This document shows, piece after piece, positions 53,292 through 54,655 of a DNA stretch of 64,000 nt; positions within the stretch are counted from its first letter, which is position 1, and every line of letters starts with the position of its first letter. The notes below the pieces were generated by a model. That model worked only from the letters and a program-made list of their open reading frames with translations. It was not told the DNA's origin and did no database searches. Origin of the DNA: Eledone cirrhosa (lineage: Eukaryota); contig OZ024748.1 of NCBI GenBank assembly GCA_964016885.1, positions 56,668,001-56,732,000 of the forward strand, in the 5' to 3' direction. A program made the translations under genes and the position numbers.

Positions 53292-53764
53292 CTATTCTCA
53301 GCTGAGCCTCCAGGCAATGCGCGGACACTGGCGGCTCATATAAAAATAATACTTCGGTAGAAAGAACAGCTAGGCGAGGACTGGATTCTATGTACTGAAA
53401 TTCTCACTGCTTCCAGTCAAATGACCGATTCTAAAGAATCAATCACGTGACATAGAGGCTAGTTAGAAGGAATGGGATGGTAAGATGACTGACGCCTACT
53501 AACACCCCAAAAAAAATTTTGAAGTGGTTTTGGCAGGTTTGCTCGACAAATCAGTGATTTGGAGATAAATATAGATAATTTAATATATCAACTAACATAG
53601 ACGCACAGATGTACGTCCATGCCAGCAAATACACAGGTTATGTCATAGTACCTAGGTGGTTCAATGCAGGAGGGTGCAGAACAATAATATAAAAGACGTA
53701 AAATAAGAAAATATTTTTTAAAAAAATTTTTAAAAAATTTTTTTACTTACTTACTTAAATTTTC

Positions 53765-53846
53765 ACTCCAACTAATTAGTTTCTGCAATGGGATAAAGAC
53801 AGTTACATAATCCAACTGTCGAGAATTCATTGCGTCATCAGGGAGT
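53765..53846 (-). ncRNA. Type I hammerhead ribozyme, copy 2
   Basis: Identical motif 555 bp from copy 1. Predicted cut between 53770 and 53769. Confidence 0.85.
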
Positions 53847-54495
53847 CTATTCTCAGCTGAGCCTCCAGGCAATGCGCGGACACTGGCGGCTCATATAAAA
53901 ATAATACTTCGGTAGAAAGAACAGCTAGGCGAGGACTGGATTCTATGTACTGAAATTCTCACTGCTTCCAGTCAAATGACCGATTCTAAAGAATCAATCA
54001 CGTGACATAGAGGCTAGTTAGAAGGAATGGGATGGTAAGATGACTGACGCCTACTAACACCCCAAAAAAAATTTTGAAGTGGTTTTGGCAGGTTTGCTCG
54101 ACAAATCAGTGATTTGGAGATAAATATAGATAATTTAATATATCAACTAACATAGACGCACAGATGTACGTCCATGCCAGCAAATACACAGGTTATGTCA
54201 TAGTACCTAGGTGGTTCAATGCAGGAGGGTGCAGAACAATAATATAAAAGACGTAAAATAAGAAAATATTTTTTAAAAAAATTTTTAAAAAATTTTTTTA
54301 CTCTTACCATCCCATTCCTTCTAACTAGCCTCTATGTCACGTGATTGATTCTTTAGAATCGGTCATTTGACTGGAAGCAGTGAGAATTTCAGTACATAGA
54401 ATCCAGTCCTCGCCTAGCTGTTCTTTCTACCGAAGTATTATTTTTATATGAGCCGCCAGTGTCCGCGCATTGCCTGGAGGCTCAGCTGAGAATAG

Positions 54496-54577
54496 ACTCC
54501 CTGATGACGCAATGAATTCTCGACAGTTGGATTATGTAACTGTCTTTATCCCATTGCAGAAACTAATTAGTTGGAGT
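54496..54577 (+). ncRNA. Type I hammerhead ribozyme, copy 3 (inverted)
   Basis: ACTCC 54496-54500, CTGATGA 54501-54507, GAAA 54559-54562, GTT^ ending at 54572, GGAGT 54573-54577. Confidence 0.85.
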
Positions 54578-54655
54578 GAAAATTTAAGTAAGTAAGTAAA
54601 AAAATTTTTTAAAAATTTTTTTAAAAAATATTTTCTTATTTTACGTCTTTTATAT

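What the first reader, a model, noticed from the sequence alone, without database searches (positions are those of the whole stretch)
53687..54655. 354-bp perfect inverted copy fused to the array: integration signature and long dsRNA with hammerheads on both strands
Seen: 54302-54655 is the reverse complement of 53687-54040, with a 261-bp spacer. At the junction the forward copy would continue CTTAC(TTAC) and the inverted copy starts (T)CTTAC(CAT), a microhomology. The far end merges via ATAT into the (TA)n array. Established: Penelope-like insertions often show a partial inverted pLTR at the 5' end. Inference: template switching or twin priming by a PLE RT. Read-through in either direction would form about 350 bp of dsRNA, a substrate for ADAR or siRNA production, which would compete with ribozyme folding and could act as a self-silencing switch.
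Basis: partly seen in the sequence, partly recalled or inferred. Interest (0 to 1): 0.7.

Follow-up and report, generated by a model that had tools for sequence, protein, structure and literature searches.

The report
Two-ended hammerhead retrozyme insertion in TA
This mirror-image stretch is the second arm of a young, non-coding jumping repeat with a hammerhead-ribozyme motif; more than half of the copies sampled without regard to their ends land in TA microsatellites as two facing arms that start at two different fixed points, which likely records a Penelope-type enzyme copying the RNA from both cut DNA ends.

Summary
The 354-bp perfect inversion is real. It is one arm of a 555-bp non-coding tandem repeat carrying a type I hammerhead motif with covarying stem II, i.e. 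a non-LTR retrozyme, inserted in (TA)n. Two-armed insertions are routine in this family: 15 of 27 sampled without regard to their ends. Arm starts are fixed: 58 of 59 two-armed insertions have one arm from site A (u1) and the other from site B (u119), 1 is B/B, none A/A. Autonomous Penelope-like elements in the same genome follow the same rule (24 A/B pairs, no true A/A). In 12 of 58 insertions neither arm contains the other, which fold-back cannot give. Best reading: twin priming by a Penelope-type RT at its two initiation sites. The dsRNA/ADAR switch is untested and most likely a by-product. Inverted arms and one-sided tails are in print; I did not find the strict rule in the library. The scan noted the same pattern before, in other families of this genome and in other genomes.

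The parts
52831..53013 (.). Left (TA)n target tract
   Evidence: TRF; sequence
53014..53568 (-). Retrozyme monomer 1 (555 bp). Arm A starts at site A (u1 = 53014, junction ambiguous within ATATA). RNA sense is the minus strand
53569..54123 (-). Monomer 2, identical to monomer 1
54124..54302 (-). Partial monomer 3 (u1-179), inner end of arm A; lacks the hammerhead
54302..54655 (+). Arm B: inverted copy u119-472, starting at site B (54655) and joined to arm A with a 1-nt overlap at 54302
53210..53291 (-). Type I hammerhead motif, copy 1: 5-bp stem I, CUGAUGA, long stem II with an unpaired C and A at its base, GAAA, palindromic stem III. Predicted cut between 53215 and 53214 (u202|u201)
53765..53846 (-). 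Type I hammerhead motif, copy 2
54496..54577 (+). Type I hammerhead motif in the inverted arm
53014..53131 (-). 118-nt 'tail' between start sites A and B, present at the outer end of one arm only. It contains a conserved hairpin just 5' of site A
54656..57155 (.). Right (TA)n target tract, about 2.5 kb
   Evidence: TRF

Best explanation
The region is one very young insertion of a 555-bp hammerhead-bearing non-coding repeat in a TA microsatellite, made of two facing arms that start at two different fixed sites (A and B, 118 nt apart), likely because a Penelope-type RT-endonuclease cut both DNA strands and primed a cDNA from each end, one at each site. Shown: the anatomy, the TA target, the A/B rule in this family and in autonomous PLEs of the same genome, and covariation in hammerhead stem II. 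Inferred: (1) an autonomous PLE protein acts in trans, probably as a dimer; (2) each TA 3' end pairs with a UAUAU just 3' of a hairpin in the RNA; (3) both cDNAs probably come from one RNA, a circle or an uncleaved multimer, copied with strand displacement; (4) the two cDNA 3' ends are joined by end-joining with little or no microhomology. The long inverted repeat, and any dsRNA from it, would be a by-product that tends to disable the new copy as a source element.
For: 58 of 59 two-armed insertions are A/B, 1 is B/B, 0 are A/A (L120 counted once, L116 and L043/44 read by eye). In the 27 insertions found by an internal 25-mer, all 15 two-armed ones are A/B. Independent choice of sites predicts 47% A/B, so 15 of 15 has a chance near 1e-5 (my arithmetic). 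Genome-wide exact junctions: 558 at A and 930 at B. A Neptune-like autonomous PLE (RVT_1 + GIY-YIG, 938-aa frame) has two 3' ends 68 nt apart, and its pairs on C1:0-49.8 Mb are 24 A/B; the 2 apparent A/A pairs resolve into separate insertions. Related PLEs with a tail near 40 nt: 4 of 4 A/B. 12 of 58 arm pairs are non-nested. In vitro, a PLE protein cuts and extends both strands, starts at two internal RNA sites that bound the tail, and is predicted to be a dimer (PMC11167929). Monomers in both arms are near-identical, with no register-matched left/right minor alleles in 26 loci, and 3 loci carry a private variant fixed across both arms. In L080 both arms end at the predicted hammerhead cut (u201/202), as expected if both copied one cleaved RNA.
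Against: The partner PLE is not identified: there is no significant DNA similarity between the unit and 18 PLE-containing loci. No RNA holder or junction-spanning read was available. One B/B case exists (L127, a degenerate palindromic cluster). 10 of 58 junctions are near-symmetric against 2.7 expected (P=0.0002), which fits fold-back for a subset. The sister arm was strictly the nearest neighbour in only 11 of 29 tests (tie 10, worse 8), so a single template is not proven. L092 has an arm-specific fixed difference. A 33-monomer array shows variants shared among monomers (e.g. 16 of 33), so the longest arrays were reshaped after insertion and are not pure rolling-circle products. The hammerhead lacks the usual purine-pyrimidine pair at the base of stem II, and it is not the minimum-energy fold (-20.3 against -22.8 kcal/mol).
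Confidence: 0.75

Rival explanations
1. Fold-back or self-priming: a single cDNA turns back on itself at a palindrome, copies itself, and is trimmed or joined at the other AT-rich site.
For: Self-priming was proposed for PLE inverted junctions with palindromes (PMC3846280, passages). 10 of 58 junctions are near-symmetric, several at palindromes. At this locus arm B is contained in arm A.
Against: In 12 of 58 insertions neither arm contains the other (one of these has a 417-bp insert at the junction). Fold-back gives no reason for the second arm to end always at the other site.
Confidence: 0.1
2. Both DNA ends are primed, but on two separate RNA molecules, with an asymmetric enzyme that uses site B for one end and site A for the other.
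For: This explains the A/B rule and long arms on both sides without displacement. L092 has an arm-specific difference. L1 can extend the two ends of a break with different RNAs (10.1101/2024.12.14.628481, passages).
Against: Private variants fixed in both arms in 3 loci. The two arms of an insertion were always far closer to each other than to the median other arm in the 29 tested. Both arms of L080 end at the cut site.
Confidence: 0.1
3. The inverted arm is a selected dsRNA switch that silences the family through ADAR or siRNA.
For: A read-through RNA of either strand is predicted to form the long duplex and bury one hammerhead.
Against: The inversion is the default product of integration, with arm lengths from 34 to 5337 bp, and this copy has no internal divergence, so it is too young to show selection. 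There is no A>G excess among template-derived private variants (1 of 7; weak).
Confidence: 0.04
4. Assembly artefact from a fold-back chimeric read.
For: No read or contig from runs X1-X4 or X16-X18 bridged the junction.
Against: The arm starts exactly at the family's site B, the flanks are not mirrored, and dozens of loci on several chromosomes have the same design with different junctions. The RAD runs cover little of the genome, and the other runs may be from other individuals.
Confidence: 0.01

Closest known systems
Metazoan non-LTR retrozymes (PMC7229834, passages read; bioRxiv 10.64898/2026.07.22.740005, parts 1-3 of 5 read)
   Same: Dispersed short tandem repeats, one type I hammerhead per monomer, low GC (37%), non-coding, co-occurring with PLEs.
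   Different: The 555-nt monomer is above the 150-450 bp range of the first paper but within the 51-972 bp range of the second. The passages I read describe neither two-armed insertions, fixed start sites nor TA targeting ('inverted' and 'microsatellite' occur 0 times in PMC7229834). Stem II is long and has an unpaired C and A at its base.
EN+ Penelope-like element insertions with inverted pLTR and tail (PMC8557442 and PMC3846280, passages read)
   Same: An inverted 5'-truncated copy next to a partial tandem, a tail on one end only, and microsatellite targeting.
   Different: This element has no ORF, and its tail is 118 nt rather than 30-40. The papers call the tail optional or often on one end and ascribe it to endonuclease resolution, and they ascribe the inversion to self-priming. 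Here the one-tail pattern is near-obligatory and the arms are often non-nested.
PAc Poseidon in vitro (PMC11167929, parts 1-2 of 4 read)
   Same: Two internal RT start sites bounding the tail; both target strands cut and extended; AT-rich target; predicted dimer.
   Different: PAc starts at RNA sites not homologous to the target and showed no strand difference in start site. Here both sites share 5 nt (ATATA) with the target, and the two ends use different sites.
L1 twin priming (Ostertag and Kazazian 2001: seen only as a reference and as summarised in 10.1101/2024.12.14.628481, passages; details recalled)
   Same: The second DNA end primes a second cDNA, giving a 5' inversion whose two cDNA ends are then joined.
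   Different: In L1 the first primer uses poly(A) and the second a variable internal site (recalled). Here both sites are fixed, there is no poly(A), and both arms can be multimers.

Membership tests
Non-LTR retrozyme | Type I hammerhead in every monomer of a short tandem repeat, at least two consecutive units | tested here: met
   Two full monomers with the motif. Core conserved across about 86 loci. Stem II has 2 pairs with changes on both sides, 95.5% of cells paired, 0 of 500 shuffles as high on covariation score, 72 of 500 on pair count.
Non-LTR retrozyme | Non-coding, low GC, monomer of a few hundred bp, dispersed copies | tested here: met
   No frame of 120 aa or more within the unit. 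GC 204 of 555. 301 exact hits of an internal 25-mer and 9169 of the hammerhead 3' half. Length above one published range and within the other.
Non-LTR retrozyme | Canonical hammerhead geometry (paired base of stem II) and self-cleavage | tested here: inconclusive
   An unpaired C and A flank stem II. 4 of 116 inner arm ends fall at the predicted cut, u201-202, which is suggestive only. No assay.
Non-LTR retrozyme | Expressed as linear and circular RNA | not testable with these tools
   No RNA run listed.
EN+ Penelope-like element (autonomous) | ORF with RT and GIY-YIG endonuclease | tested here: not met
   No ORF in the unit, and no PLE-1 DNA or protein match anywhere in the window.
PLE-type insertion footprint | Inverted 5'-truncated copy, tail at one end, microsatellite target | tested here: met
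PLE-derived non-autonomous element | Sequence homology to the pLTR of an autonomous PLE | tested here: inconclusive
   Only 16-32 nt low-complexity matches in the PLE parts of 18 loci; L166 holds a separate 78% relative of the unit. Only 18 of the 150 scored GIY-YIG hits were fetched at length.
L1-type twin-primed inversion | Poly(A) 3' end, target-site duplication, variable second priming site | tested here: not met
   No poly(A); the second site is fixed; a duplication cannot be read inside (TA)n.

The most novel reading that the evidence does not exclude
A Penelope RT dimer engages two hairpin-anchored start sites on one circular retrozyme RNA and primes both cut DNA ends at once, the two enzymes chasing each other round the circle. 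PLE inverted ends, the one-sided tail and multimeric retrozyme arrays would then be a single mechanism. The (AG)n runs at site A of one subfamily would additionally show telomerase-like repeated copying at initiation.
Probability: 0.4. Interest if true: 0.7.

Novelty: new variant of a known kind. Interest (0 to 1): 0.5.

Why it matters
How Penelope-like elements make their tandem and inverted ends and their tails is described as undefined (PMC8557442), and the mobilisation of animal retrozymes by PLEs rests so far on co-occurrence and pLTR similarity (10.64898/2026.07.22.740005). A near-strict one-A/one-B rule shared by a retrozyme and autonomous PLEs in one genome is an enzyme footprint that ties the two together. 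It gives a sharp prediction for the existing in vitro PLE system.

Tried and rejected
Rfam scans gave no hammerhead hit; the motif was found by pattern and alignment. The repeat finder output was swamped by (TA)n. Sequencing runs: no RNA holder listed. Laying X1, X4, X16, X17 on the whole element and X1, X2, X3, X18 on the junction showed no bridging record; the loose ends at 54302 were the normal unit continuation. This is uninformative given RAD sampling, a possibly different individual and a low-complexity left side. One recalled Pfam accession was not in the library; the GIY-YIG family was used instead. No partner PLE was identified by DNA similarity. The arm nearest-neighbour test did not separate one template from two. 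A loose hammerhead regex over all loci missed this family's own motif because of lazy matching, so it gives no count for it. Enrichment of arm ends at the ribozyme cut (4 of 116, two from one locus) was noticed after the fact and is not taken as proof. Literature searches for the strict rule; none of the listed papers that I opened states it. Subscription papers (e.g. early Penelope work) and supplements of PMC8557442, PMC11167929 and the bioRxiv preprint were not seen and may bear on this. A near-place look-up of earlier findings returned nothing.

Full report
Observation. The inverted repeat is exact: 54302-54655 is the reverse complement of 53687-54040 over 354 of 354 bases, with a 261-bp spacer, and it is equally complementary to 53132-53485. 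It sits at the end of a 555-bp tandem array (2.3 identical units, 53014-54302) between (TA)n tracts of about 0.2 and 2.5 kb. Unit positions are written u1-u555 with u1 = 53014. The inner junction has a 1-nt overlap.

The unit. Its minus strand carries a type I hammerhead motif: a 5-bp stem I, CUGAUGA, a long stem II, GAAA, a palindromic stem III and a UH cut site at u202|u201. Rfam does not detect it. In 13 relatives chosen for divergence (72-100% identity; 12 of the 19 distinct hits plus the window copy), 95.5% of cells pair and stem II shows compensatory changes at 2 of 4 pairs; relatedness inflates the shuffle test, but slid controls are far lower. The base of stem II has an unpaired C and A where known hammerheads have a purine-pyrimidine pair (recalled), and the ribozyme fold is 2.5 kcal/mol above the minimum, so activity is open. 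The unit is 37% GC and non-coding. An internal 25-mer occurs 301 times and the ribozyme 3' half 9169 times in this 3.0-Gb genome. This meets the sequence definition of a non-LTR retrozyme (PMC7229834, passages; 10.64898/2026.07.22.740005, parts 1-3).

Family survey. The first 100 of 301 listed 25-mer hits form 27 insertions (L031-L058); 15 are two-armed and 12 one-armed, 11 of the latter starting at or beside u119. I added 9 loci from best DNA hits, 40 found by the u1 junction and 20 by the u119 junction. Parsing gave 59 two-armed chains: 57 A/B, L116 (A/B by eye) and one B/B. Counting the duplicated L120 once and adding L043/44 gives 58 A/B, 1 B/B and 0 A/A of 59. Site A is u1 (u5 behind an (AG)n run in one subfamily) and site B is u119. 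Genome-wide there are 558 exact A junctions and 930 B junctions, so independent choice would give 47% A/B. Both sites share ATATA with the target and lie just 3' of predicted hairpins; the hairpin before A is conserved, with 3 of 24 pairs changed on both sides in 9 sequences. Inner junctions are scattered: of 58, 31 have overlapping alignments, 9 are blunt, 16 have 1-30 extra bases and 2 have more (alignment overlap overstates microhomology). This window's insertion is an ordinary member: arm A 1289 bp, arm B 354 bp.

The enzyme. A GIY-YIG search scored 150 hits out of 10,596 candidates. Of 18 fetched at length, most hold RT frames of PLE type. L158 has a 938-aa frame with RVT_1 and GIY-YIG and a Cys-rich linker of the kind described for Neptune and Nematis. 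This family ends in (TA)n at two sites 68 nt apart; 3 of 3 two-armed loci were A/B. From 100 A and 42 B junctions on C1:0-49.8 Mb, facing pairs within 6 kb were 24 A/B and 2 A/A, and both A/A pairs proved to be separate insertions. Among 18 further loci fetched, 7 pairs were A/B, 4 had a second arm whose alignment stops 5-34 nt short of B, and none was A/A. Related PLEs with a tail near 40 nt gave 4 of 4 A/B (two other loci shown there were uninformative). The rule is therefore a property of the PLE machinery. Which PLE family moves this retrozyme is not known, since no pLTR homology was found.

Mechanism. In vitro, a Poseidon protein cuts and extends both strands, starts at two internal RNA sites that bound the tail, and is predicted to be a dimer (PMC11167929). 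Genomic descriptions note an inverted 5'-truncated copy and a tail often on one end (PMC8557442; PMC3846280) and propose self-priming. Fold-back requires one arm to lie within the other; 12 of 58 pairs do not, so two separate cDNAs are needed at least there. Against a uniform picture, 10 of 58 junctions are near-symmetric against 2.7 expected; this fits fold-back for a subset, annealing at palindromes, or one RT catching up with a stalled one. For one template: monomers in both arms differ mostly by singletons, 3 loci have private variants fixed in both arms, and both arms of L080 stop at the ribozyme cut. Against or neutral: the nearest-neighbour test was split 11/10/8 of 29, L092 has an arm-specific difference, and a 33-monomer array shows shared variants that point to later unequal exchange. 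A circular template is plausible from the retrozyme literature but is not shown; an uncleaved multimer from a homogeneous array fits as well.

The dsRNA idea. Folding the whole insertion predicts the long duplex on either strand. It buries the only plus-strand hammerhead, and one of the two on the minus strand, so a read-through RNA would be unlikely to release a monomer. That makes the inversion a likely dead end rather than a switch. There is no evidence of transcription, editing or small RNAs; no RNA run was available. Private variants fixed across monomers, which could record template editing, include 1 A>G of 7, too few to decide.

Novelty. Retrozymes, PLE inverted ends, one-sided tails and two start sites are each in print. 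I did not find the near-obligatory A/B pairing, the non-nested arms, or their sharing between a retrozyme and autonomous PLEs in the library, which lacks most subscription papers; I read no supplements. Earlier notes of this scan report the same pattern for other families in this genome and in other genomes. I had reached this reading before opening them, and they are not independent support. Verdict: a real, ordinary member of a known kind, whose family-wide footprint makes an open mechanistic question testable.

Noticed in passing
L051, L109, L113, L114, L116, L118, L120, L122 (site A ends): A subfamily has an (AG)n run of variable length between the (TA)n target and u5, matching a UCUCU stretch in the RNA at the start site. 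This suggests repeated, telomerase-like copying at initiation, and that part of the flanking TA may also be made by the RT.
   Followed up: no
G000:C1:301308226-301327582 (L043, L176, L177, L044): A 19-kb two-armed array of about 35 monomers. 33 aligned monomers share minor variants in scattered subsets, a sign of unequal exchange after insertion.
   Followed up: partly
L046:700-1573; L145:1-270; L112; L125; L166: Older relatives (69-78% identity, about 530-bp unit) with the same hammerhead type and start sites. In L046 the young element sits in the TA tail of an old one.
   Followed up: partly
L032:1640-1880: A retrozyme insertion in the TA tail of a Neptune-like PLE 3' end: the two share targets.
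   Followed up: no
L056:700-1300: Another tandem repeat (483-bp period) with a short motif shared with the tail region of this unit; perhaps a further non-autonomous family.
   Followed up: no
L161, L162, L165, L173 and others: Many other type I hammerhead families occur in the fetched loci, one of them downstream of the ORF of a PLE family. These HHR-bearing PLEs are candidate partners.
   Followed up: no
L120, L125, L126, L127: Short palindromic clusters and back-to-back B ends separated by about 25 bp of TA; L120 looks like an inverted duplicate of one insertion. Probably secondary rearrangement.
   Followed up: partly
window 4191-5612 and 2187-2442: Minisatellites of 23 bp (62 copies, 95% matches) and 27 bp (10 copies).
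   Followed up: no
window 11882-13728, 31820-38501, 39634-41309: Very long degenerate (TA)n arrays, up to 6.7 kb.
   Followed up: no
window 11296-11390 (+): A weak hammerhead-like pattern match, probably chance.
   Followed up: no
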